Assembly (NCBI RefSeq): GCF_004010195.1
Contig: NC_057719.1
Coordinates: 8,178,190-8,241,035, forward strand
DNA: 62,846 bases
Source of the DNA: Chiloscyllium plagiosum
Lineage: Eukaryota
Reading direction: 5' to 3'
Shown here: positions 11,433-59,708 of the stretch, one piece after another
Position numbering within the stretch: the stretch's first letter is position 1
Layout: every line of letters starts with the position of its first letter
The notes under the pieces: model-generated
The model's input: only the letters and a program-made list of their open reading frames with translations
The model's database searches: none
What the model was told of the DNA's origin: nothing
Made by a program: the position numbers and the translations under genes

Positions 11433-11961
11433 GAGTCATAAAGTCATAGAGATGTACAGCACAGAAGCTGCCCCTTCGGTCCAATCCATTCCAACCAGAT
11501 ATCCCAACCCAATCTAGTCCCACCTGCCAGCACCTAGCCTATATCCGTCCAAACCCTTCCTGTTCATGTACCCATTCAGATGCCTTTTAAATGTTGCAAT
11601 TGTACCAGCTTCCACCAATTCCTCTGGCAGCTTATTCCACACACACACCACCCTCTGCATGAAAAAGTTGCCCCTTAGGTCTTTTTTATATCTTTCCCCT
11701 CTCACCCTAAACATATGCCCTCCAGTTCTGGATTCCCCGACCCTAGGGAAAAGACTTTGGCTATTTATCCGATCCATTTCCCTCAATTTTGTAAACCTCT
11801 ATAATGTCACCCCTCAGCCTCCAACACTCCAGGGAAAACAGCCCCAGCCTGTTCAGCCCCTCCCAATGGCTCAAATCCTCCAACTCTGGCAACACGCTTA
11901 TAAATCTTTTCTGAACCCTTTCAAGTTTCACAACATCTTTCCGATAGGAAGGAGACCAGAA
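11433..11961 (-). mobile_element. CR1 (HER1-like) LINE 3' fragment
   Basis: ORF2 C-terminus (LFPRVGESRTGGH..RGNFF..VWNKLP) and (ctatgact)n-type tail. Confidence 0.9.
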
Positions 11962-12875: not shown

Positions 12876-14104
12876 ATAGAATAGAATAAAAAAGTTGAGC
12901 ACAGAACAGGCCCTTTGGCCCACGATGTTGTGCCGAGGTCTAATCCTAATGTCAAATATAGTAACTTAACCTATGCACCCCTCAACTCACTGCTATCCAT
13001 GTGCATGTCCAGCAATCGCTTAGATGTCCCCAATGACTCTGCTTCCACCACCGCCGCTGGCAACGCATTCCAGGCATTCACAACTCTCTGCGTAAAGAAC
13101 CTATCTCTGACGACTCCTTTATACCTACCTCCTAGTATCTTAAAACTATGACTTTTTTTACCAGTCAATCCTGCCCTGGGGAAAAGTCTCTGGCTATTGA
13201 CTCTATCTATTCTTCTCATTATTTTGTACACCTCGATCAGGTCTCCTCTCTTCCTCCTTCTCTCCAGAGAGAAAAATCTGAANNNNNNNNNNNNNNNNNN
13301 NNNNNNNNNNNNNNNNNNNNNNNNNNNNNNNNNNNNNNNNNNNNNNNNNNNNNNNNNNNNNNNNNNNNNNNNNNNNNNNNNNNNNNNNNNNNNNNNNNNN
13401 NNNNNNNNNNNNNNNNNNNNNNNNNNNNNNNNNNNNNNNNNNNNNNNNNNNNNNNNNNNNNNNNNNNNNNNNNNNNNNNNNNNNNNNNNNNNNNNNNNNN
13501 NNNNNNNNNNNNNNNNNNNNNNNNNNNNNNNNNNNNNNNNNNNNNNNNNNNNNNNNNNNNNNNNNNNNNNNNNNNNNNNNNNNNNNNNNNNNNNNNNNNN
13601 NNNNNNNNNNNNNNNNNNNNNNNNNNNNNNNNNNNNNNNNNNNNNNNNNNNNNNNNNNNNNNNNNNNNCTGTATCCCATACTTCCTGACTTTATGAATGG
13701 GCCTACCATGGGGAACCCTATCAAATGCCTTGCTGAAGTCCATATACACCACATCCACTGCTCGACCGTCGTCGACCTGTCTTGACACCTCAAAGAACTC
13801 AATAAGATTTGTGAGGCATGACTTGCCCCTCACAAAGCCATGCTGACTGCCTTTAATCATACTATGCTTTGCCAAATAGTCATAAATCCTATCTCTCAGA
13901 ATTCTTTCCAAAACTTTGCTGACGACAGATGTAAGACTGACTGGTCTGTAATTGCTGGGGATTTCCCTATTACCCTTCTTGAAAAGAGGAACAACATTCG
14001 CCTCCTTCCAATCCTCCGGTATGACTCCTGTGGAGAGTGAAGAGGCAAATATCCTTGCCAGCGGCTTAGCAACCTCCTTTCTCGCTTCCCAGAGCAGCCT
14101 AGGA
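12876..14104 (-). mobile_element. CR1 LINE, second subfamily, RT to 3' end (contains gap)
   Basis: SQHGFVRGKSCLTNLIEFFE..VDVVYMDFSKAFDRVPH, and C-terminus RFFTQRVVNAWNALP. Confidence 0.9.
13283..13668. other. Assembly gap
   Basis: Run of N. Confidence 1.
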
Positions 14105-19075: not shown

Positions 19076-20417
19076 CAAAGTCATAGAGATGTACAGCATG
19101 GAAGCAGACTTTCAGTCCAACCTGTCCATGCCGACCAGATATCCCAACCCAATCTAGTCCCACCTGCCAGCACCCGGCCCATATCCCTCCAAACCCTTCC
19201 TATTCATATACCCATCCAAATGCCTCTTAAATGTTGCAATTGTACCAGCCTCCACCACATTCTCTGGCAGCTCATTCCATACACATACCACCCTCTGCGT
19301 GAAAAGGTTGCCCCTTAGGTCTCTTTTACATCTTTCCCCTCTCACCCTAAACCTATGCCCTCTAGTTCTGGACTCCCCAACCCCAGGGAAAAGACTTTGT
19401 CGATTTATCCTATCCATGCCCCTCATAATTTTGTAAACCTCAATAAGGTCACCCCTCAGCCTCTGACACTCCAGGGAAAACAGTCCCAGCCTGCTCAGCC
19501 TCCCCCTACAGCTCAAATCCTCCAACCCTGGCAACATCCCTGAAAATCCCTCTGAACCCCTCCAAGTCCCACAACATCCCTCCGACAGGAAGGAGACCAG
19601 GCTGCACACAACATTTCAAGAGTGGCCTAACCAATGTCCTGTACAGCTACAACACAACCCTCCCACTCCTGTACTCAACACTGACCAATAAAGGAAAGCA
19701 TACCAAACACCTTCTTCACTATCCTATCACCCTGCGACTCCACTTTCAAGGAGCTATGAACCTGTACTCCAAGGTCTCTGTTCAGCAACACTCCCATAAC
19801 CTTACCATTATGTGTACAAGTCCTGCTCTGATCTGCTTCTCCAAAATGCAGCACCTCACATCCGTCCGAATCAAACTCCATCTGCCACATCACAGCCCAC
19901 CGGCCCATCTGGTCAAGATCCCACCGTAACCCGAGGCAACCCTCCTCGCTGTCCACCACACCTCCAACCCTGGTGTCGTCTGCAAACCCACCAACCACAC
20001 CTCTTATGCTCACATCCAAATCATCCATATAAATGATGAAAAGCAGAACTGATCCTTGTGGCACTCCACTGGTCATAGGCCTCCAGTCTGAAAATCAACC
20101 CTCCACCACCACCCTCTGTCTTCTACCTTTGAGCCAGTTCTGTATCCACATGGCTAGTTCTCCCTGTATTCCATGAGATCTAACCTTGCTAATCAGTATC
20201 CCATGGGGAACCTTGTTGAACGCCTTACTCAAGTCCATATAGATCACATCTACCGCTCTGCCCTTATCAATCCTCTTTGTAACTTCCTCAAAAAACTCAA
20301 TCAAGTTTGTGAGACATGATTTCCCATGCACAAAGCCATGTTGACTATCCCTGATCAGTCCTTGCCTTTCCAATACATGTAGATCCTGTCCCTCAGGATT
20401 CCCTCCAACAACTTAGT

Positions 20418-20577
20418 GGGCGGCACGGTGGCACAGTGGTTAGCACTGCTGCCTCACAGCGCCTGAGACCCGGGTTCAATTCTCGCCTCAGGCGACTGAC
20501 TGTGTGGAGTTTGCACGTTCTCCCCGTGTCTGCGTGGGTTTCCTCCGGGTGCTCCGGTTTCCTCCCACAGTCCAAAG
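20418..20577 (+). mobile_element. HE1-like SINE (CpG-rich, probably young) inserted in CR1, truncated by gap
   Basis: gggcggcacggtggcacagtggttagcactgctgcctcacagcgcc..ggttcaattc. Confidence 0.9.
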
Positions 20578-21341
20578 NNNNNNNNNNNNNNNNNNNNNNN
20601 NNNNNNNNNNNNNNNNNNNNNNNNNNNNNNNNNNNNNNNNNNNNNNNNNNNNNNNNNNNNNNNNNNNNNNNNNNNNNNNNNNNNNNNNNNNNNNNNNNNN
20701 NNNNNNNNNNNNNNNNNNNNNNNNNNNNNNNNNNNNNNNNNNNNNNNNNNNNNNNNNNNNNNNNNNNNNNNNNNNNNNNNNNNNNNNNNNNNNNNNNNNN
20801 NNNNNNNNNNNNNNNNNNNNNNNNNNNNNNNNNNNNNNNNNNNNNNNNNNNNNNNNNNNNNNNNNNNNNNNNNNNNNNNNNNNNNNNNNNNNNNNNNNNN
20901 NNNNNNNNNNNNNNNNNNNNNNNNNNNNNNNNNNNNNNNNNNNNNNNNNNNNNNNNNNNNNNNNNNNNNNNNNNNNNNNNNNNNNNNNNNNNNNNNNNNN
21001 NNNNNNNNNNNNNNNNNNNNNNNNNNNNNNNNNNNNNNNNNNNNNNNNNNNNNNNNNNNNNNNNNNNNNNNNNNNNNNNNNNNNNNNNNNNNNNNNNNNN
21101 NNNNNNNNNNNNNNNNNNNNNNNNNNNNNNNNNNNNNNNNNNNNNNNNNNNNNNNNNNNNNNNNNNNNNNNNNNNNNNNNNNNNNNNNNNNNNNNNNNNN
21201 NNNNNNNNNNNNNNNNNNNNNNNNNNNNNNNNNNNNNNNNNNNNNNNNNNNNNNNNNNNNNNNNNNNNNNNNNNNNNNNNNNNNNNNNNNNNNNNNNNNN
21301 NNNNNNNNNNNNNNNNNNNNNNNNNNNNNNNNNNNNNNNNN
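20578..21341. other. Assembly gap
   Basis: Run of N. Confidence 1.
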
Positions 21342-21955
21342 NCTTAACAAATTCCTCTCCATCTAAATCCTTAACACTATGGCAGTCCCAGTTAATGTTT
21401 GGAAAGTTAAAATCCCCTACCATAATCACCCTATTATTCTTACAGATAGCTGAGATGTCCTTACAAGTTTATCTCTCAATTTCCCTGTGACTATTGGGGG
21501 GGTCTATAATAAATCCCAACAAGGTGATTATCCCTTTCTTATTTCTCAGTTCCACCCAAGTAACTTCCCTGGATGTATTTCCAGGAATATCCTCCCTCAG
21601 CACAGCTGTAATGCTATCCCTTATCAAAAACGCCACTCCCCCTCCTCTCTTACCTCCCTTTCTATCCTTCCTGTAGCATTTGTATCCTCGAACACCAAGC
21701 TGTCAGTCCTGCCCATCCCTGAGCCATTTTCTGTAATTGCTATGATATCCCAGTCTCATGTTCCTAACCATGCCCTGAGTTTATCTGCCTTCCCTATTCG
21801 GCCCCTTGCATTGAAATAAATGCAGTTTAATTTATTAGTCCTACTTGACTCTGCCATGCTCTGAGTGTTTGACTCTCTTCTGTTCTCAACTGTACCAGTC
21901 CCAGATTAATCTCTTTCCTCACTATCTCCCTGGGTTTCCCCCCCCCACAACTTTA

Positions 21956-22628
21956 TTAGTTTAAATCCTCCCGAGCACCTGCCAGTATATTAGTCCCCTT
22001 CCAATTTAGGTGCAATCCGTCCTTCTTGTACAGGTCACTTCTACTCCGAAAGAGATTCCAATGAACCAAAAATGTGAATCCTTCTCTCATACACCAGCTC
22101 CTCAGCCATGCATTCATCTGCTCTATCCTCCTATTCCTGCCCTCACTAGCTCGTAGCACCCTGAGTAATCCAGATATTACTACTCTCGAGGATCTCCTTT
22201 CTAAATCCCTGCCTAACCCTCTGTAATCTCCCTTCAGAATCTCAACCTTTTCCCTTCCTATGTCAATGATTCTAACGTGGACAATCACCTCTTGATGGCC
22301 CCTCTCCCCCTTGAGAACATTCTGCACCCTCTCTGCGACATCCTTGATCCTGGCACCAGGGAAGCAACACCCCCTTCTGCATTTTTGCTGCTGGCCACAG
22401 AAACGTCTGTCTGTACCTCTGACTAGAGAATCCCCTAACACAATTGATCTCTTGGAACCTGACATACCCCTCGTTGCATTCGAACCAGTCTCAATACCAG
22501 AGACTTGGCTACGTTTCCCTGTGAATCGATCACCCCCTACATTTTCTAAAACAGTATACTTGTTTGAATTGGGGATAGCCACAGAAGATTCCTGCACTAC
22601 CTGCTTACCCCTCTTACCTTTCCTGGTG
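21956..22628 (-). pseudogene. CR1 ORF1 SGNH/GDSL esterase domain (5' truncated)
   Basis: IVLGDSLVRG..CFPGARIKDV..VVISGLL..NAWLRSWC..YKKDGLHLNWKG, typical of CR1 ORF1p esterase. Confidence 0.85.
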
Positions 22629-28265: not shown

Positions 28266-30959
28266 AAATGGCTGCTGGAGAAATGTCAGACAAGTATTCA
28301 GATGGATCGCTGAACACCAAACAACAGGTTGACGTTCAGGTTTGAAGGTGGTAAATGGTTTGTGGCTGTTAGAATGATGACTCCAGAAGGAGAGGTCCAA
28401 GTGGGAATTGTCAGATAGGCACCAGTGCAAGATATAACACAGGCTTGTGCAAAATGGTTCGAGATGGTCACCCAGAAATGCAGCTGAGAACCCAATGCAA
28501 TGGGAAGAATGAAGATCTGGATTTCCAGACAAAAGACATGAGGTACAATTCAACTGAAGTATATATGAATCATGGACTGATAACTCTACATATACGAGGA
28601 GAGATTTGCAATGTTTTTCAGGTCATTATATGATTAACTGATGAACAGATCCTTGAAGATTACACCAGAAGGTATTTTTTACAGGTCTTGTATGTCCTTC
28701 CTTGTACATATCGTCACATGGTAGATGCGAGTGTGAGACCAGGTCAGCAACTCAGCATCAGGTCTCCCAGATCCCAGTAAGGTGAGTGTTGTATCAGAGA
28801 TCCCAACCGATGTAAAAGCAACATAATGATATCTCTGATTAGTGAACTATTTAGCAATTTGTGCCAAATTTGTCTCCAGAATGTCAGCATATATGTGAGT
28901 TCACCACTATCGCAGCACAGAGCAAGATGCTAATTTCACTAGAATCGAGCATCTAGTGTTGAAGTTGCCAGTGCCTAGGAACTACAATGTCAAGGAATAA
29001 GTCACTTTGCAATGTGATGGCAGTGAGACAAATCTGAACTCAGTTTGCAATAACACCCTAGATGCAAATGTAACTGGATGTCTCTGCTGCATAAAAGGTC
29101 TCTCCTACTGCGGGTACACTCAGCTTGAGAAAGAATGCATATTGTCTTTAATGTGTGTGCAATGAAAACCTGTTTGAGAGAGATAGAGTAACAGCAGAGT
29201 GCGACCACAAGCCATTTCAAAGCATCTAAAACTGTTTGCAATGAATGTAATTTCATTTATTTATTTTGTGGATATGACACACCAACAAGGGATATTAAAG
29301 ACCTATTGGCGAGAGGAGCCCTCACTGTGAAGAAAGCTCCAGATGCTAAGACACCATGTGAAATCTGCGAGATGCAATGAGAAGCCACAGCTCAGTATAT
29401 TGTGGAAGATATCAGTGCAGCAGGGAATCTCAGTCTGAAAGGCAACAGTCTCACTTTAATGAAACACTCACCACAGGACAGGCACTTGTGGGAAGAAATG
29501 TCGCCCCAGGAACAAGTACATACCAGATATTCTGATAACAACTTGCGGGTTGTCATTAAAGGGCCTGAACATTTTTAGAAATAATGAATGGAATGCATGC
29601 GCAGAGCCTGATGGATGTGAGATTGACTAGAAGTAACATGCAATTTGTTCATTAATCATAACTTTCTTGGGTTGACCATGCGATTTAATAAATTGTAGCA
29701 ATAAAGGGTCATGCATGCCATTTGTCTTTGTTTATTTATGAAGAGGGGGACATTTGCAGAAATGCATTTGCAAGTAGTGTACTCGCTGGCTTTCCAAGGT
29801 AATGTGACCTCTACTTTTATTGAAAGTGTTTTCACTTTGGTTTATGGCAACCATTGAACATATTGCATAAAGCAGATTTATTTCACCTACCGTGATGTTG
29901 GTTCTGTGGCTAATTTCTGGTTAAGACTAAGTTTGCTTGTGATTGGTTTCTCCTATCTATCAAGATAATTGGGCGTGGGTGTTAGTCTTTATAAAAATAG
30001 ATACTGTTGAGTTCTCAGTGCAGATAAATGAGGGACTCTAATCTAAGTCTATGCAGTCAGAATGAAAGGTATACCCTTACTGATTGTGTTATCTGACTCA
30101 TTCTTGAATGAGTTCATTCTTTTTATTTCCTATCCTGAAGTACAGTCTGTTTTTTATATGAAAAAGTTAGTCTACCATTTGTCCTACAATGTACCTTTCC
30201 TAATCCTGTAGGTACAGGTTTAAGGTCCACTTTACATATAAAATAGGAATTTAGCTGGAAGAGGAAATTCAGTAAAGAGGGAAAAAGAGATGTTTTGCCT
30301 TAAGGCTATAGCAAGAAGTAAAGTGTGTTGAGTGAGGACTGTGGTGAAGAGAGGGGAGGTGACTTTCTTTCAGTAAGTTATTCATTGGTAAGAAACTGCT
30401 ATTACAGACTGCGTTTAGATTGCTGCAAACTATATAAAGTGTATTACTTTTAAAGAAGTAGTTGCACTTGGATTTAACTGGGACATATTAGAGATTAGGG
30501 AAAGTCAGGGCTATATGCAATCTGAGACTAGTACAGCTGAGAACATAAGAGAGTCAAACAGTCAGGGCAGGCAGGGACAAGGTAGGACTAATAAATTCAA
30601 CTGCATTTATTTCAATGCAAGGGGCCTAACAGGGAAGGCAGGTGAACTCAGGGCATGGTTAGGAACATGGGACTGGGATATCAAAGCAATTACAGAAACA
30701 TGGCTCAGGGATGGGCAGGACTGGCAGCTTAATGTTCCAGGATACAAATGCTACAGGAAAGATAGAAAGGGAGGCAAGACAGGAAGGGGAGTGGTGTTTT
30801 TGATGAGGGATAGCATTACAGCTGTGTTGAGGGAGGATATTCCTGGAAATACATCCAGGGAAGTTATTTGGGTGGAACTGAGAAATAAGAAAGGGATGAT
30901 CACCTTATTGGGATTGTAATATAGACCCCCCAATAGTCAGAGGGAAATTGAGAAACAAA

Positions 30960-31622
30960 NNNNNNNNNNNNNNNNNNNNNNNNNNNNNNNNNNNNNNNNN
31001 NNNNNNNNNNNNNNNNNNNNNNNNNNNNNNNNNNNNNNNNNNNNNNNNNNNNNNNNNNNNNNNNNNNNNNNNNNNNNNNNNNNNNNNNNNNNNNNNNNNN
31101 NNNNNNNNNNNNNNNNNNNNNNNNNNNNNNNNNNNNNNNNNNNNNNNNNNNNNNNNNNNNNNNNNNNNNNNNNNNNNNNNNNNNNNNNNNNNNNNNNNNN
31201 NNNNNNNNNNNNNNNNNNNNNNNNNNNNNNNNNNNNNNNNNNNNNNNNNNNNNNNNNNNNNNNNNNNNNNNNNNNNNNNNNNNNNNNNNNNNNNNNNNNN
31301 NNNNNNNNNNNNNNNNNNNNNNNNNNNNNNNNNNNNNNNNNNNNNNNNNNNNNNNNNNNNNNNNNNNNNNNNNNNNNNNNNNNNNNNNNNNNNNNNNNNN
31401 NNNNNNNNNNNNNNNNNNNNNNNNNNNNNNNNNNNNNNNNNNNNNNNNNNNNNNNNNNNNNNNNNNNNNNNNNNNNNNNNNNNNNNNNNNNNNNNNNNNN
31501 NNNNNNNNNNNNNNNNNNNNNNNNNNNNNNNNNNNNNNNNNNNNNNNNNNNNNNNNNNNNNNNNNNNNNNNNNNNNNNNNNNNNNNNNNNNNNNNNNNNN
31601 NNNNNNNNNNNNNNNNNNNNNN
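30960..31622. other. Assembly gap
   Basis: Run of N. Confidence 1.
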
Positions 31623-32947
31623 AGAGAAGGTGCAAACCTTGACCTACTCTTGGGAAATAAGTCAGGGCAGGTGACTGAGGTGTCAGTGGGGGAGCACTTT
31701 GGGGCCAGCGACCATAATTCTATTAGTTTTAAAATAGCGATTGAAAAGGATAGACCAGATCTAAAAGTTGAAGTTCTAAATTACCGCCAATTTTGACGGT
31801 ATTAGGCAAGAACTTTCAAAAGTTGATTGGAGGCAGATGTTCGCAGGTAAAGGGACGGCTGGAAAATGGGAAGCCTTCAGAAATGAGATAACGAGAATCC
31901 AGAGAAAGTATATTTCTGTGAGGGTGAAAGGAAAGGCGGGTAGGTACAGGGAATGCTGGATGACTAAAGAAATTGAGGGTTTTGTTAAGAAAAAGAAGGA
32001 AGCATATGTAAGGTATAGACAGGATAGATCGAGTGAATCCTTAGAAGGGTATAAAGGAAGTAGCAGTATACTTAAGACAGAAATCAGAAGGGCAAAAAGG
32101 GGACATGAGATAGCTTTGGCAAATCCAAAGGGTTTTTACAAATACATTAAGGAGAAAAGGGTAACTAGGGAGAGAATAGGGCCCCTCAAAGATCAGCAAG
32201 GTGGCCTTTGTGTGGAGCTGCTGACATGGGGGAGATACTAAACGAGTATTTTGCATCAGTATTTACTGTGGAAAAGGATATGGAAGACTTAGACAGTAGA
32301 GAAATAGATAGTGACATCATGCAAAATGTCCAGATTACAGAGGAGGAAGTGCTGGATGCCTTGAAACGGTTAGAGGTGGATAAATCCCCAGGACATGATC
32401 AGGTGTACCTGAGAACTCCGTGAGAAGCTAGAGAAGTGATTGCTGGGCCTCTTGCTGAGATATTTGCAACATCGATAGTCACAGGTGAAGTGCCGGAAGA
32501 CTGGAGGTTGGCTAACGTGGTGCCACTGTTTAAGAAGGGCGGTAAGGACAAGCCAGGGGACTATAGGCTGGTGAGCCTGACCTCGGTGGTGGACAAGTTG
32601 TTGGAAGGAATCCTGAGGGACAGGATCTACATGTATTTGGAAAGACGAGGACTGATTAGGGATAGTCAACATGGCTTTGTGCGTGGGAAATCATGTCTCA
32701 CAAACTTGATTGAGTTTTTTGAAGAAGTAACAAAGAGGATTGATGAGGGGAGGACATGATCTATATGGACTTCAGGAAGCATTCAACAAGGTTCCCCATG
32801 GGACATTGGTTACCAAGGTTAGACCTCAGTTGAAAGGGTTCTCTAAAGATTTACAAGCATGTTGTCAGGGTTGGAGGATTTGAGCTATAGGGAGAAGCTG
32901 AATAGGCTGGGGCTGTTTTCCCTGGAGCGTCAGAGGTTGAAGGGTGA

Positions 32948-33309
32948 NNNNNNNNNNNNNNNNNNNNNNNNNNNNNNNNNNNNNNNNNNNNNNNNNNNNN
33001 NNNNNNNNNNNNNNNNNNNNNNNNNNNNNNNNNNNNNNNNNNNNNNNNNNNNNNNNNNNNNNNNNNNNNNNNNNNNNNNNNNNNNNNNNNNNNNNNNNNN
33101 NNNNNNNNNNNNNNNNNNNNNNNNNNNNNNNNNNNNNNNNNNNNNNNNNNNNNNNNNNNNNNNNNNNNNNNNNNNNNNNNNNNNNNNNNNNNNNNNNNNN
33201 NNNNNNNNNNNNNNNNNNNNNNNNNNNNNNNNNNNNNNNNNNNNNNNNNNNNNNNNNNNNNNNNNNNNNNNNNNNNNNNNNNNNNNNNNNNNNNNNNNNN
33301 NNNNNNNNN
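32948..33309. other. Assembly gap
   Basis: Run of N. Confidence 1.
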
Positions 33310-33802
33310 TTATAGAGGTTTACAAAATTATGAGGGGCATGGATAGGTAAATAGGCAAAGTCTTTTTCCTGGGGTCGGGGAGTCCAGAACCAGAGGGACA
33401 TAGGTTTAGGGTGAGAGGGGAAAGATATTAAAGAGACCTAAGGGGCAACCTTTTCACACAGAGGGTGGTACGTGTATGGAATGAGCTGCCAGAGGATGTG
33501 GTGGATGCTGGTACAATTGCAACATTGAAGAGGCATTTGGATGGGTATATGAATAGGAAGGGTTTGGAGGGGTATGGGCTGGGTGCTGGCAGGTGGGACT
33601 AGATTGGGTTGGGATATCTGGTCGGCATGGATGGGTTGGACTGAAGGGTCTGTTTCCATTGTGTACATCTCTCTGACTCTATGACTCTCATATAATAAAG
33701 TAACAGAAGTAATCCAAAGCAAACTAAAGTAACTGTAAGAGAACTAAAGTTAAGGCTTGGCAGTGTAGTTTGGTCAAGTGGAATGTGCGAGCTTTAATAT
33801 AG

Positions 33803-43865: not shown

Positions 43866-44120
43866 TTAGGGGAAAGGTATAAAGGAGACGTCAGAGATAG
43901 GTTCTTTATGCAGTGAGTTGTGAATGCATGGAATGTGTTGCCAGCGGTGGTGGTGGAAGCAGAGTCATTGGGACATCTAAGTGACTGCTGGACAGGAACA
44001 TGGAGAGCAGTGAGTTGAGGGGTGGGAAGGTTAAGTTATTATTTTTTACATTAGGATTAAACCTCGGCACGACACTGTGGGCCAAAGGGCCTGTTCTGTG
44101 CTGTACTTTTCTATGTTCTA
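43866..44120 (+). mobile_element. CR1 second-subfamily 3' fragment inserted into the tail of the adjacent HER1-like copy
   Basis: Homologous to 12876-13145. The host tail is split into agagtcagagagatgt (43840-43855) and atgtacagcatgg (44120). Confidence 0.8.
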
Positions 44121-45250
44121 TGTACAGCATGGAAACAAACCCTTCGGTCCAACCTGTCCATGCCGACCAGATATCCCAACCCAATCTAGTCCCACCTGCC
44201 AGTACCCAGCCCATATCCTTCCAAACCCTTCCTATTCATATACCCATCCAGATGCCTTTTAAATGTTGCAATTGTACCAGCCTCCAACACTTCCTCTGGC
44301 AGCTCATTCCATACACGCATCACCTTCTGTGTGAAAATGTTACCCCTTATGTTTCTTTTATATCTTTCCCCTTCTCAGCCTAAACCTATGCCCTCTAGTT
44401 CTAGACTCCCCCACCCCAGGGAAGAGACTTTGTCTATTTATCCTATCCGTGACCCTCATGATTTTATAAACCTCCATAAGGTCATCCCTCAACCTCCGAG
44501 GCTCCAGGGAAAACAGCCCTAGTCTCTTCAACCTCTCCGTATAGCTCAAATCCTCCGACCCTGGCAACATCCTTGTAGATCTTTTCTGAACCCTTTCAAG
44601 TTTCACAACATCCTCCTGATAGGAAGGAGACCAGAATTGCACGCAATATTCCAACAGTGGCCTAACCAACAGCCACAACATGACCTCCCAACTCCTGTAC
44701 TCAGTACTCTGACCAATAAAGTAAAGCATACCAAACGCCTTCTTCATTATCCTATCTACCTGTGACTCCACTTTCAAGGAGCTATGAAGCTGCACTCCAA
44801 GGTCTCTTTGTTTAGCAACACTCCCTAGGACCTTATCATTAAATGTATATGTCCTGCTAAGATTTGCTTTCTCAAAATGCAGCACCTCACATTTATCTAA
44901 ACTAAACTCCATCTGCCAGTTCTCAGGCCATTGGCCAATCTAGTCAAGATCCTGTTGTAATCCGAGGTAACCTTATTTCCTGTCCACTACACCTCCAATT
45001 TTGATGTCATCTGCAAACTTACTAACTACACCTCCTATGTTCATATCCAAATCATTTATATAAACGATGAAAAGTGATGGACCCAGCACCGATCCTTGTG
45101 GCACTCCATTGGTCACTGGCCTCCAGTCTGAAAAACAACCCTCGACCACCACCCTCTGTCTTATACCTTTGAGCTAGTTCTCCCTGTATTCCATGAGATC
45201 TGACCTTGCCAACCAGTCTCCCATGGGGAACCTTGTCGAACGCCTTGTCC
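44120..45250 (-). mobile_element. CR1 (HER1-like) RT to 3' end
   Basis: KAFDKVPHG..MEFSLDKCEVLHF..LEYCVQFWSP..LGLFSLE. Confidence 0.9.
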
Positions 45251-58719: not shown

Positions 58720-59708
58720 GGAATCATACAGCATAGAAACAGACACTTCGGTCCAACCAGTCCATACTGACCATAATCCCAAACTAAACTCGTCCCACCT
58801 GCTTGCTCCTGACCCAGATCCCTCCAAACTTTTCCTACTCATGTCTTTTAAATGTTGTAGCTGTACCTGTACCTGTATGTTGTAACTGTATGTTGTAACC
58901 TGTATGTTGTAACTGTACCTAAATGTTGTAGCTGTACCTGTATCCACCACTCCCTCTGGAAGTTCATTCCACACACGAATCACTCTCTGTGTAAAAACAT
59001 TGCCCCTCGGGTCTTTTGTAAATCTTTCTCCTCTCACCTTAAAAATATGCCACCATGGCCATGAAATTCTCCATCCTTGGGTAAGATACCTGCCATTCAA
59101 AATATCTATATGCCTCATGCTTTTATAAACCTCTATAAGGTCACCCCTCAGCCTCCGACGTTCCAGGGAAAACAGCCCCAGGCTGTTCAGCCTCTCCCTG
59201 TAGCTCAAACCCTACAACCCTGGCAACATCCTTGTAAATCTTTTCTGAACATTTTCAAGTTTCACAACATCCTCCTGATAGGAAGGAGACCAGAATTGCA
59301 CGCAGTATTCCAACAGTGGCCTAACCAATGTCCTGTACAGCCGCAACATGACCTCCCAACTTCTGTACTCAATGCTCTCACCAATAAAGGAAAGCATACC
59401 AAACGCCTTCTTCACTATCCTATCAACCTGTGACTCCACTTTCAAGGAGCTATGAACCTGCACTCCAAGGTATCTTTGTTCAGCAACACTCTCCAGGACC
59501 TTACCATTAAGTGTATAGGTCCTCCTCTGATTTGCCTTTCCAAAATGCAGCACCTCACATTTATCTGAATTAAACTCCATCTGCCACTCCTTAGCCCATT
59601 GGCCCATCAGGTTAAGATCCTGTGGTGATCTGAGACAACCTTCTTCGCTGTCCATGACACCTCCGATTTTGGTGTCATCTGCAAACTTACTAAATGTAAC
59701 TCCTATAC
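58720..59708 (-). mobile_element. CR1 (HER1-like) RT to 3' end with a local microsatellite expansion (58855-58940)
   Basis: KFADDTKIGG..WQMEFNSDKCEVLHFG..LEYCVQFWSP..LGLFSLERRRLRGDLIEVYK. Confidence 0.9.

What the first reader, a model, noticed from the sequence alone, without database searches (positions are those of the whole stretch)
19490..20030. CR1 LINE copy with clustered, strand-specific A-to-G hypermutation: possible genomic fossil of ADAR hyper-editing
Seen: compared with sister copies in this window (11433-11961, 44120-45250, 58720-59708), this copy has two dense patches (~19492-19680 and ~19815-20027). Most differences there are T>C on plus, i.e. A>G on the LINE sense strand, roughly 40-45 by hand count. 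Examples on plus: ccaattttggtg>ccaaccctggtg, aaacttactaac>aaacccaccaac, caagtttcac>caagtcccac, atcatttata>atcatccata. The RT changes accordingly: IN>MD, SKFADDTKI>GGFADDTRV, FNSDK>FDSDG, GKAN>GEAD. Flanking parts of the same copy match the sisters normally. The direction is opposite to CpG decay and to APOBEC G>A editing. Established: ADAR deaminates clusters of A to I in dsRNA, and reverse transcriptases read I as G. Inference: the LINE RNA was partly double-stranded, hyper-edited and then retrotransposed into the germline, recording RNA editing in DNA. I am not aware of this being described for shark CR1, but I cannot search.
Basis: partly seen in the sequence, partly recalled or inferred. 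Interest (0 to 1): 0.8.

Follow-up and report, generated by a model that had tools for sequence, protein, structure and literature searches.

The report
ADAR-edited LINE copy fossilised in DNA
One copy of a shark-type CR1-like jumping gene carries 45 adenine-to-guanine changes packed into two short patches on its RNA-sense strand, the mark expected if its RNA was heavily edited by the enzyme ADAR before being copied back into the genome; the mechanism is known, so this is a clean new example and not a new principle.

Summary
The reference is 31 sister copies, polarised by column majority. Against them the minus-strand LINE copy at 19079-20414 has 100 differences in 1322 columns. 49 are T>C on plus (A>G on the LINE sense strand) and 6 are the reverse. 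45 of the 49 lie in two patches, 19494-19679 and 19817-20026. There 45 of 123 sense adenines changed, against 4 of 236 elsewhere in the copy. Sisters have 0-17 such changes.

No other copy shares more than 9 of the 45 G states. Genome searches with each patch gave 84% and 86% as best non-self identity, so this is not a subfamily.

Edited adenines are depleted for a 5' G (6 of 39, against A 21 of 33 and U 13 of 22), which is the ADAR preference. Downstream G is not enriched.

A second, independent copy (L047, another chromosome) shows the same signature: 40 of 75 adenines in two different patches.

The best reading is ADAR hyper-editing of LINE RNA followed by retrotransposition (confidence about 0.8). 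The dsRNA partner is unknown. Read-level support could not be checked, and the genome-wide strand test remains undone. The kind is known from retroviruses, so this is a new member of a known kind.

The parts
19079..20414 (-). 3' part of a CR1-like LINE copy: C-terminal half of the reverse transcriptase, the ORF2 end, the 3' UTR and an octamer tail. This is the copy that carries the edits.
   Evidence: RVT_1 scores 37.4 bits on 20095-20412(-) and 19.6 bits on 19675-20094(-). 29 genome sisters align over 19079-20414 at 86-88%. The sense 3' end is CTCTATGA repeated 1-3 times with no poly(A), and the flanks differ in every copy.
19494..19679 (-). Edited patch 1: 18 sense-strand A>G changes among about 50 adenines.
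   Evidence: 18 of 51 plus T became C; 1 of 55 plus A became G. Positions are listed.
19691..19814 (-). Unedited spacer between the patches.
   Evidence: 0 of 30 plus T changed. P = 7.5e-7 if the patch rate applied.
19817..20026 (-). Edited patch 2: 27 sense-strand A>G changes among about 70 adenines. It covers the RT active-site (FADD) region.
   Evidence: 27 of 72 plus T became C; 2 of 54 plus A became G. Protein changes are confirmed.
20416..20577 (.). A different, SINE-like repeat that abuts the LINE sequence. The assembly breaks into an N run just after it.
   Evidence: It matches 94-96% in several unrelated loci in both orientations. Most LINE sisters stop aligning at 20414. The N run is 20578-21342.
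21343..22500 (-). Upstream continuation of the same LINE beyond the N run (endonuclease region). No editing cluster is visible in the part that could be polarised.
   Evidence: Sisters match 21343-22500 at 86-90%. Exo_endo_phos_2 scores 22.3 bits, below its cut-off, on 21343-21468(-). In 21343-21936, 5 of 34 differences are T>C over 515 columns, with only 3-7 sisters per column.
30519..33678 (+). Inverted copy of the same family about 8-13 kb away. It lacks the equivalent of 19549-20173, so it cannot pair with most of the edited patches.
   Evidence: HSPs: 19079-19446 with 33678-33310 (93%), 19449-19548 with 32947-32848, 20174-20414 with 32828-32595, and 21468-21907 with 30959-30519.

Best explanation
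A sense-strand RNA of this CR1-like LINE formed long, near-perfect double-stranded segments with a complementary RNA. The partner was most likely an antisense copy of the same abundant 3' region, either in trans or in the same transcript. An ADAR enzyme deaminated about 37% of the adenosines in two duplexed stretches of about 190 and 210 nt to inosine.

[quoted passage not shown] The new insertion therefore carries G where the family has A. It has since aged like its sisters.

Shown: the strand-specific clustered A>G pattern, its uniqueness to this copy, the 5' neighbour bias, the RNA-mediated nature of the element, the presence of ADAR-type deaminase genes, and a second independent case.

Inferred: the enzyme, the timing (editing before insertion), and the identity of the dsRNA partner.
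For: 1. 49 T>C against 6 A>G on plus, of 100 differences in 1322 columns. 45 of the 49 lie in two patches, where 45 of 123 majority-T sites became C, against 4 of 236 outside. Binomial p = 2.4e-21 against the sisters' spectrum.
2. At sense A in the patches there are 45 transitions and 3 transversions. The other three bases are almost unchanged.
3. Edit rate by 5' neighbour: U 13/22, A 21/33, C 5/26, G 6/39 (G against the rest, p = 5.5e-4). That is the order U~A>C>G. Strong upstream-G depletion is the shared ADAR motif across Metazoa (passages of PMC5625713; PMC2873906 reports 7.85% against 30.3%).
4. It is not a subfamily. The best non-self identity is 84% for patch 2 and 86% for patch 1, with 40 scored of 5110 and 4018 first-look candidates. 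Of 74 other fragments in hand, none shares more than 9 of the 45 states.
5. A second copy, L047:1086-1800 on another chromosome with its own flank, has 40 of 75 sense adenines changed in patches equivalent to 19275-19434 and 19513-19586. It has 0 of 101 changed outside and 0-1 of the reverse class. It shows the same 5' bias: G 6/26 against A 19/25 and U 11/15, p = 2e-4; pooled p = 3.6e-7. It shares only 1 non-T>C difference with the focal copy, so the two are independent events.
6. The element replicates through RNA (RVT_1; octamer tail and unique flanks).
7. A_deamin (PF02137) exons over the cut-off occur at six loci of this genome.
8. Hyper-editing of RNA is abundant in elephant shark brain. 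Chicken CR1 3' fragments are massively edited because they pair with each other (passages of PMC5625713).
Against: The variants rest on one assembly, in a contig bounded by N runs.
2. No dsRNA partner was found. The two patches are not complementary to each other (duplex z of -0.5 to -1.6 in four sisters). The sense RNA of a sister has no helix longer than 11 stacked pairs. The inverted copy nearby lacks the patch region.
3. Downstream G, preferred by mammalian and reptile ADARs, is not enriched (focal 14/41; pooled 31/69, p = 0.88). In the focal copy downstream A is enriched (20/34; 18/31, p = 0.009). PMC5625713 reports A as the preference of amphibians and invertebrates. I did not see which group its shark falls in.
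4. The 5' A/U preference is also what a WA-type polymerase error signature would give. C against G at the 5' position (9/35 against 12/65) does not separate the two.
5. The second copy was retrieved with an edited patch as query, so the search favoured the same direction. The strand asymmetry in the whole genome is untested.
6. In cell culture, no A-to-I change was found in about half of a human L1 RNA with ADAR2 over-expressed (passages of PMC8677026).
Confidence: 0.8

Rival explanations
1. DNA-level, strand-coordinated mutagenesis of the inserted copy or of its single-stranded cDNA. Candidates are an error-prone polymerase with a WA>WG signature or damage to exposed single-stranded DNA. No RNA editing would be involved.
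For: Edited sites prefer a 5' A or U (pooled 64 of 95, against 21 of 100 after C or G), which also fits a WA motif. The changes are clustered and confined to one strand.
Against: 37% and 53% of all adenines changed over 75-210 nt in two separate insertions. That is far denser than any polymerase patch I know of (recalled). There are 45 and 40 transitions against 3 and 3 transversions at the target base, whereas error-prone synthesis at A gives a large share of transversions (recalled). The patch borders are sharp (0 of 30 in the spacer). No known deaminase gives T>C on cDNA (recalled).
Confidence: 0.07
2. Misincorporation by the LINE reverse transcriptase under a skewed nucleotide pool (dC opposite template A), giving A>G hypermutation without a deaminase.
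For: The result would also be specific to the sense strand and to transitions. Hypermutation by reverse transcriptases under biased dNTP pools is known in vitro (recalled).
Against: A pool effect should act along the whole cDNA. Here 4 of 236 sites changed outside the patches and 0 of 30 between them, and there is no cluster in 21343-21936. The depletion of 5' G is the ADAR motif.
Confidence: 0.05
3. Assembly or sequencing artefact: the C states are not in the animal's DNA.
For: The contig is bounded by N runs at 13283-13668 and 20578-21342, and the family has thousands of copies (23139 first-look candidates). No read check was possible.
Against: I know of no error mode that turns 37% of T into C on one strand in 200-nt patches with an ADAR-like neighbour bias (recalled). 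A collapse or chimera of family copies would give majority states, not 45 states that no other copy has. A second locus on another chromosome shows the same pattern at other positions.
Confidence: 0.05
4. The patches come from a diverged subfamily or from gene conversion by one, or the copy keeps ancestral CpG that decayed in all sisters.
For: Mosaic LINE copies exist in other genomes (recalled). Other kinds of difference are somewhat denser in and between the patches (5.0%, 5.5% and 4.9%) than in the flanks (2.2% and 3.7%).
Against: No donor was found: best non-self identity is 84% and 86%, and no copy shares more than 9 of 45 states. Divergence between subfamilies would not be one substitution type on one strand. 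Only 5 of 45 new C precede G.
Confidence: 0.02

Closest known systems
ADAR hyper-editing of retroviral RNA fixed in proviral DNA (RAV-1, Felder et al. 1994; avian leukosis virus, Hajjar and Linial 1995). Both are known to me only through passages of the review PMC8586724.
   Same: Clustered A>G on the RNA sense strand, written into DNA by a reverse transcriptase that reads inosine as G.
   Different: Here the element is a non-LTR LINE that reverse-transcribes at the chromosomal target. The event is an old germline insertion, not a viral clone. No inverted repeat that would give the dsRNA is seen in the copy.
APOBEC-type DNA editing of retrotransposons preserved in genomes (passages of PMC4866542, and PMC2873906).
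   Same: A hypermutated retroelement that still integrated, detected as a cluster of one mismatch type against sister copies.
   Different: APOBEC gives G>A on the sense strand by deaminating C in the cDNA. Here the change is A>G, and G>A is at background: 3 C>T on plus among 127 majority-C sites in the patches.
RNA-level hyper-editing of CR1 and other repeats (Porath et al. 2017, passages of PMC5625713).
   Same: The same kind of substrate (3' parts of CR1 copies pairing with each other), the same upstream-G depletion, and abundant hyper-editing in a cartilaginous fish.
   Different: That work sees the editing in RNA reads only. Here the edited state is in the genome itself.
ADAR1 and ADAR2 as restrictors of human L1 (passages of PMC8677026; review PMC4982230).
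   Same: ADARs meet LINE RNA.
   Different: In those assays restriction needed little or no catalysis, and no A-to-I change was found in about half of the L1 RNA. The 2016 review calls a role of ADAR editing in Alu evolution 'not yet determined'. The present copy is sequence evidence that a heavily edited LINE RNA completed insertion.
[quoted passage not shown] The paper is not held. I saw only its citation, for hyper-editing in mammalian transposons, in PMC5850729.
   Same: By its title and by recollection it treats editing of retrotransposons as a source of genome change.
   Different: I could not read it. Whether it already lists genomic A>G-clustered LINE insertions is unknown to me.

Membership tests
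ADAR hyper-editing footprint | A>G changes only, on one strand, which is the RNA sense strand | tested here: met
   49 T>C against 6 A>G on plus. In the patches, 45 A>G against 3 transversions at sense A. The RT reads on the minus strand.
ADAR hyper-editing footprint | Dense clusters in which a large share of adenosines in a stretch are edited | tested here: met
   45 of 120 (38%) in the focal patches and 40 of 75 (53%) in L047. 4 of 236 outside the patches.
ADAR hyper-editing footprint | G depleted immediately 5' of edited A | tested here: met
   Focal G 6/39 against U 13/22 and A 21/33, p = 5.5e-4. L047 p = 2e-4. Pooled p = 3.6e-7. The motif is taken from passages of PMC2873906 and PMC5625713.
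ADAR hyper-editing footprint | Preference at the 3' neighbour (G in mammals and reptiles, A in amphibians and invertebrates, per PMC5625713) | tested here: inconclusive
   3' G is not enriched (pooled 31/69, p = 0.88). 3' A is enriched in the focal copy only (20/34; 18/31, p = 0.009). The preference of this species' ADARs is unknown to me.
ADAR hyper-editing footprint | A long double-stranded RNA substrate | tested here: inconclusive
   No intramolecular duplex was found. Patch-to-patch duplex z is -0.5 to -1.6, and the longest stack is 11 pairs. The nearby inverted copy lacks the patch region. A partner in trans or at the unknown source locus cannot be tested.
ADAR hyper-editing footprint | The host encodes ADAR-type deaminases | tested here: met
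   PF02137 exons over the cut-off at six loci (C5, C7, C17, C32, C41, C51). I did not determine which of them are ADAR1/2 as opposed to ADAD or ADAT1.
ADAR hyper-editing footprint | An RNA-to-DNA route (reverse transcription) for the edited molecule | tested here: met
   RVT_1. The 3' octamer tail and unrelated flanks in 16 of 16 copies inspected mark independent retrotranspositions.
CR1 clade of LINEs | ORF2 with an AP-type endonuclease and a reverse transcriptase | tested here: inconclusive
   RVT_1 is over its cut-off (37.4 against 29.6). Exo_endo_phos_2 scores only 22.3 against 27.4, on a 42-aa piece next to the N run.
CR1 clade of LINEs | The 3' end is a short direct repeat (octamer) with no poly(A). 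That this defines CR1 is recalled. | tested here: met
   The sense 3' ends read CTCTATGA one to three times and then unrelated flank, in 16 of 16 copies inspected.
CR1 clade of LINEs | The RT groups with CR1 in a phylogeny | not tested
   There is only an automatic label: the nearest Atlas clusters are chordate 'mobile element jockey-like' RTs, score 0.96.
APOBEC-type DNA editing | Clustered G>A on the element's sense strand | tested here: not met
   Plus C>T is 3 of 127 majority-C sites in the focal patches and 5 of 82 in L047.

The most novel reading that the evidence does not exclude
Hyper-edited insertions are a recurrent class in this CR1 family and not a one-off. Two independent copies were edited in overlapping zones. 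In the zone equivalent to 19529-19590 they share 9 edited sites of 20 adenines, against 6 expected (p = 0.01). If this holds genome-wide, the patch maps of such copies record which parts of the LINE RNA were double-stranded in the ancient germline. Examples would be sense-antisense pairs of the over-represented 3' region. ADAR editing would then act on non-LTR elements as a mutagenic restriction, the counterpart of APOBEC on LTR elements, and would feed new sequence into the genome.
Probability: 0.3. Interest if true: 0.6.

Novelty: new member of a known kind. Interest (0 to 1): 0.45.

Why it matters
RNA editing is normally invisible in genomes. A retrotransposed, hyper-edited LINE is a dated, heritable record that the element's RNA was double-stranded and met ADAR in the germline, and that inosine-rich RNA can still complete target-primed reverse transcription.

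The reviews and cell-culture work I could read leave open whether ADAR editing shapes non-LTR elements at all. PMC4982230 says the role is 'not yet determined' for Alu. PMC8677026 found no editing in about half of an L1 RNA.

The family has thousands of copies and an easily scored signature. A genome-wide count of A>G against U>C clusters is therefore a cheap, decisive test. It would also give the rate at which editing feeds new sequence into a cartilaginous-fish genome.

Tried and rejected
A random, unbiased sample of family copies could therefore not be drawn.
2. Read support. The look-up of sequencing runs listed 9 runs holding half or more of 94 sampled words, under organism labels A to C. 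The retry beside that part met the cap. Nothing was laid, so these shares are not evidence either way. Unedited parts of the stretch could supply most of the shared words.
3. Intramolecular hairpin between the two patches: rejected.
4. The in-window inverted copy as the editing partner: rejected, because it lacks the equivalent of 19549-20173.
5. More edited patches upstream (21343-21936): none seen, but only 3-7 sisters per column were available. The 765-base N run hides the rest.
6. Queries made from edited patches of the focal copy and of L047 found only each other. L053 has 8 T>C between equivalents 19326 and 19518, and 7 of its 11 T>C are shared with L047. It was chosen for likeness to L047, so I did not count it.
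7. All-against-all BLAST of the 244,100 bases in hand examined 4851 HSPs of 150 bp or more at 75% identity or more. Every pair flagged for a one-type mismatch cluster (at least 12 mismatches and at least half of all) involved the focal copy or L047. No other repeat family and no G>A cluster was flagged.
8. Literature: eight searches found no paper describing genomic A>G-clustered CR1 or shark LINE insertions. Knisbacher and Levanon 2015 is not held and may bear on this.
9. Earlier notes of this scan: none for this genome or sequence. One similar case exists in another genome.

Full report
**What is at the coordinates.** Window 19079-20414 is the 3' part of a non-LTR retrotransposon lying on the minus strand. 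Stop-to-stop frames on the minus strand carry the RT motifs, including SGVPQGSVL and the FADD box. Pfam RVT_1 scores 37.4 bits on 20095-20412(-) and 19.6 bits on 19675-20094(-).

The sense 3' end has no poly(A). It ends in the octamer CTCTATGA, repeated one to three times, followed by flank that is unrelated in all 16 copies inspected. That is the CR1 type of 3' end (the definition is recalled) and it marks independent insertions. The nearest protein-atlas clusters are chordate 'jockey-like' RTs.

At 20416-20577 a different, SINE-like repeat abuts the LINE. An N run covers 20578-21342. The LINE resumes at 21343 and runs to at least 22500, where sisters match at 86-90%, with a weak endonuclease match. 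The copy is therefore at least about 3.4 kb long. The genome is 3.56 Gb, and the family has at least 23,139 first-look candidates.

**Checking the observation.** I aligned the copy with 31 sisters: 29 loci and two in-window copies. HSPs under 700 bp were dropped, as were locus HSPs under 80% identity. Each difference was polarised by the column majority, requiring at least 8 sisters and at least 70% agreement, which left 1322 columns.

The copy has 100 differences. 49 are T>C on plus, which is A>G on the LINE sense strand, and only 6 are A>G on plus. T>C by region:

| Region | T>C / plus-strand T |
|---|---|
| 19490-19690 (patch 1) | 18 of 51 |
| 19815-20035 (patch 2) | 27 of 72 |
| 19079-19489 | 1 of 100 |
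| 19691-19814 (spacer) | 0 of 30 |
| 20036-20414 | 3 of 106 |

The first and last edited positions give patches of 19494-19679 and 19817-20026. Sisters treated the same way have 0-17 T>C and at most 10 per 200 bp, against 26 here. Against the sisters' pooled spectrum (168 T>C of 1537 differences), 49 of 100 has p = 2.4e-21.

Within the patches the target base shows 45 transitions and 3 transversions, and the other three bases are nearly untouched. Only 5 of the 45 new C precede G, so retained CpG is not the cause.

**Is it a subfamily?** Searching the genome with each patch alone returned the locus itself. The next best matches were 84% (patch 2) and 86% (patch 1), with 40 scored of 5110 and 4018 first-look candidates. 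Unedited sisters are expected at about that level. Among 74 other family fragments in hand, the largest number of the 45 G states shared by any one copy is 9. The caveat is that only the best-ranked candidates are scored by the search.

**Neighbour preference.** I used the majority state of the neighbours. The edit rate of sense adenines in the patches by 5' base is U 13/22, A 21/33, C 5/26 and G 6/39 (G against the rest, p = 5.5e-4). This is the ADAR order. Strong depletion of upstream G is the motif shared across Metazoa (passages of PMC5625713; PMC2873906 gives 7.85% against 30.3%).

Downstream G is not enriched (14/41). Downstream A is enriched in this copy (20/34). PMC5625713 reports that the downstream preference differs between animal groups: G in mammals and reptiles, A in amphibians and invertebrates. 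The missing 3' G is therefore a weak point and not a contradiction. I did not see where that paper places its shark.

**A second case.** All 75 family fragments present in the window and the fetched loci were aligned. One other fragment stood out: L047:1086-1800, on another chromosome. It is a 5'-truncated copy of about 715 bp with its own flank. It has 39-40 T>C and 0-1 A>G on the equivalent strand. All of these lie in two patches equivalent to 19275-19434 and 19513-19586, where 40 of 75 adenines changed, against 0 of 101 outside.

L047 shows the same 5' bias: G 6/26, A 19/25, U 11/15, p = 2e-4 (pooled with the focal copy, p = 3.6e-7). It shares 9 edited sites with the focal copy, mostly in the short zone where the patches overlap, but only 1 of the other differences. 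The two are therefore separate events on separate RNAs. Its own edited region is unique too: its best non-self match is the focal copy at 84%.

There is a retrieval bias to note. L047 came from the search that used focal patch 1 as query, so retrieval favoured copies edited in the same direction.

In the less biased remainder, no fragment has a cluster in either direction. An all-against-all comparison of the 244,100 bases in hand (4851 HSPs) flagged only pairs that involve these two copies. So the events are rare among copies.

**Where was the double-stranded RNA?** It was not within the visible element. The two patches are no more complementary to each other than shuffled controls (z of -0.5 to -1.6 in four sisters). 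The sense RNA of an unedited sister has no helix longer than 11 stacked pairs.

An inverted copy of the same family lies 8-13 kb away at 30519-33678. It lacks the equivalent of 19549-20173. In any case, pairing at today's locus could not change DNA. By inference, the partner was an antisense copy of the same 3' region, in trans or in the transcript of the unknown source locus.

This fits what is reported for chicken CR1. Its many 3' fragments pair with each other and are massively hyper-edited. Hyper-editing is also abundant in elephant shark brain (passages of PMC5625713).

The upstream part 21343-21936 shows no cluster (5 T>C of 34 differences, few sisters). The N run hides 765 bases.

**Rivals.**
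- *DNA-level strand-coordinated mutagenesis or a WA-type polymerase signature.* This shares the 5' A/U preference. It does not fit the density (38% and 53% of adenines), the near-absence of transversions or the sharp borders.
- *Misincorporation by the RT under a skewed nucleotide pool.* This should not stop and start within one cDNA.
- *A diverged donor subfamily.* This is excluded as far as the searches reach.
It would have to create 45 states that no family copy has, on one strand, with an ADAR-like context, and do so again at another locus.

The genome has A_deamin exons at six loci, so the enzyme family is present.

**Comparison with what is known.** ADAR hyper-editing written into DNA by reverse transcription is in print for avian retroviruses (Felder 1994; Hajjar and Linial 1995; both seen only as cited in passages of PMC8586724). 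The mirror case, APOBEC G>A clusters preserved in genomic retroelements, is well studied (passages of PMC4866542 and PMC2873906).

For non-LTR elements the papers I could read are more cautious. A 2016 review says a role of ADAR editing in Alu evolution 'has not yet been determined' (PMC4982230). ADAR2 bound human L1 RNA, but no A-to-I change was found in about half of it (PMC8677026).

Knisbacher and Levanon 2015 is not held. It is cited for hyper-editing of mammalian transposons in PMC5850729 and may already describe such genomic copies. Eight full-text searches found nothing on shark or CR1 genomic copies with this signature. This scan has one earlier, similar note in another genome, e1-7810917: an edited hairpin inside a LINE. 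I did not test it.

**Verdict.** The pattern is real, far beyond chance and private to this copy. Its strand, purity, density, borders and 5' context are those of ADAR hyper-editing of the LINE RNA before insertion (confidence about 0.8). It is a new member of a known kind. It is a clean and useful example, made more interesting by a second independent copy, but it is not a new mechanism. Interest: 0.45.

Noticed in passing
L047:1086-1800 (G000 contig C21, about 17.44 Mb): A second, independent hyper-edited copy of the same family. 40 of 75 sense adenines changed to G in two patches (window equivalents 19275-19434 and 19513-19586), and none of 101 outside. No other genomic copy is closer than 84% to its edited region.
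   Followed up: yes
L053:899-1675 (minus): A possible lightly edited third copy. It has 11 T>C against 3 A>G, 8 of them between window equivalents 19326 and 19518. 7 of the 11 are at sites also edited in L047. It was retrieved by likeness to L047, so chance plus selection is not excluded.
   Followed up: partly
window 30519-33678 (+ sense), with N runs at 30960-31622 and 32948-33309: A long inverted copy of the same LINE family 8-13 kb from the focal copy. About 625 bp (equivalent to 19549-20173) is missing, with only about 20 bp in its place. If the two copies are co-transcribed today, they could form dsRNA over their shared parts.
   Followed up: partly
window 20416-20577; also L007, L009, L010, L016, L017, L039, L050: A SINE-like repeat of about 160 bp, 94-96% identical between loci, in both orientations and often close to LINE copies. 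In L007 it abuts the LINE at the same point as in the window, so it may be part of a LINE variant rather than an insertion.
   Followed up: no
L002:1579-3006(-), L009:1302-2669(-), L003:1474-2775(+), L023:1579-2826(-): Several sister copies keep open frames of 416-476 aa through the RT C-terminal half. Private divergence from the column majority is only about 3-5%. The family was active fairly recently.
   Followed up: no
window 13283-13668, 20578-21342, 30960-31622, 32948-33309: Four N runs of uneven length (386, 765, 663 and 362 bases) in 63 kb.
   Followed up: no
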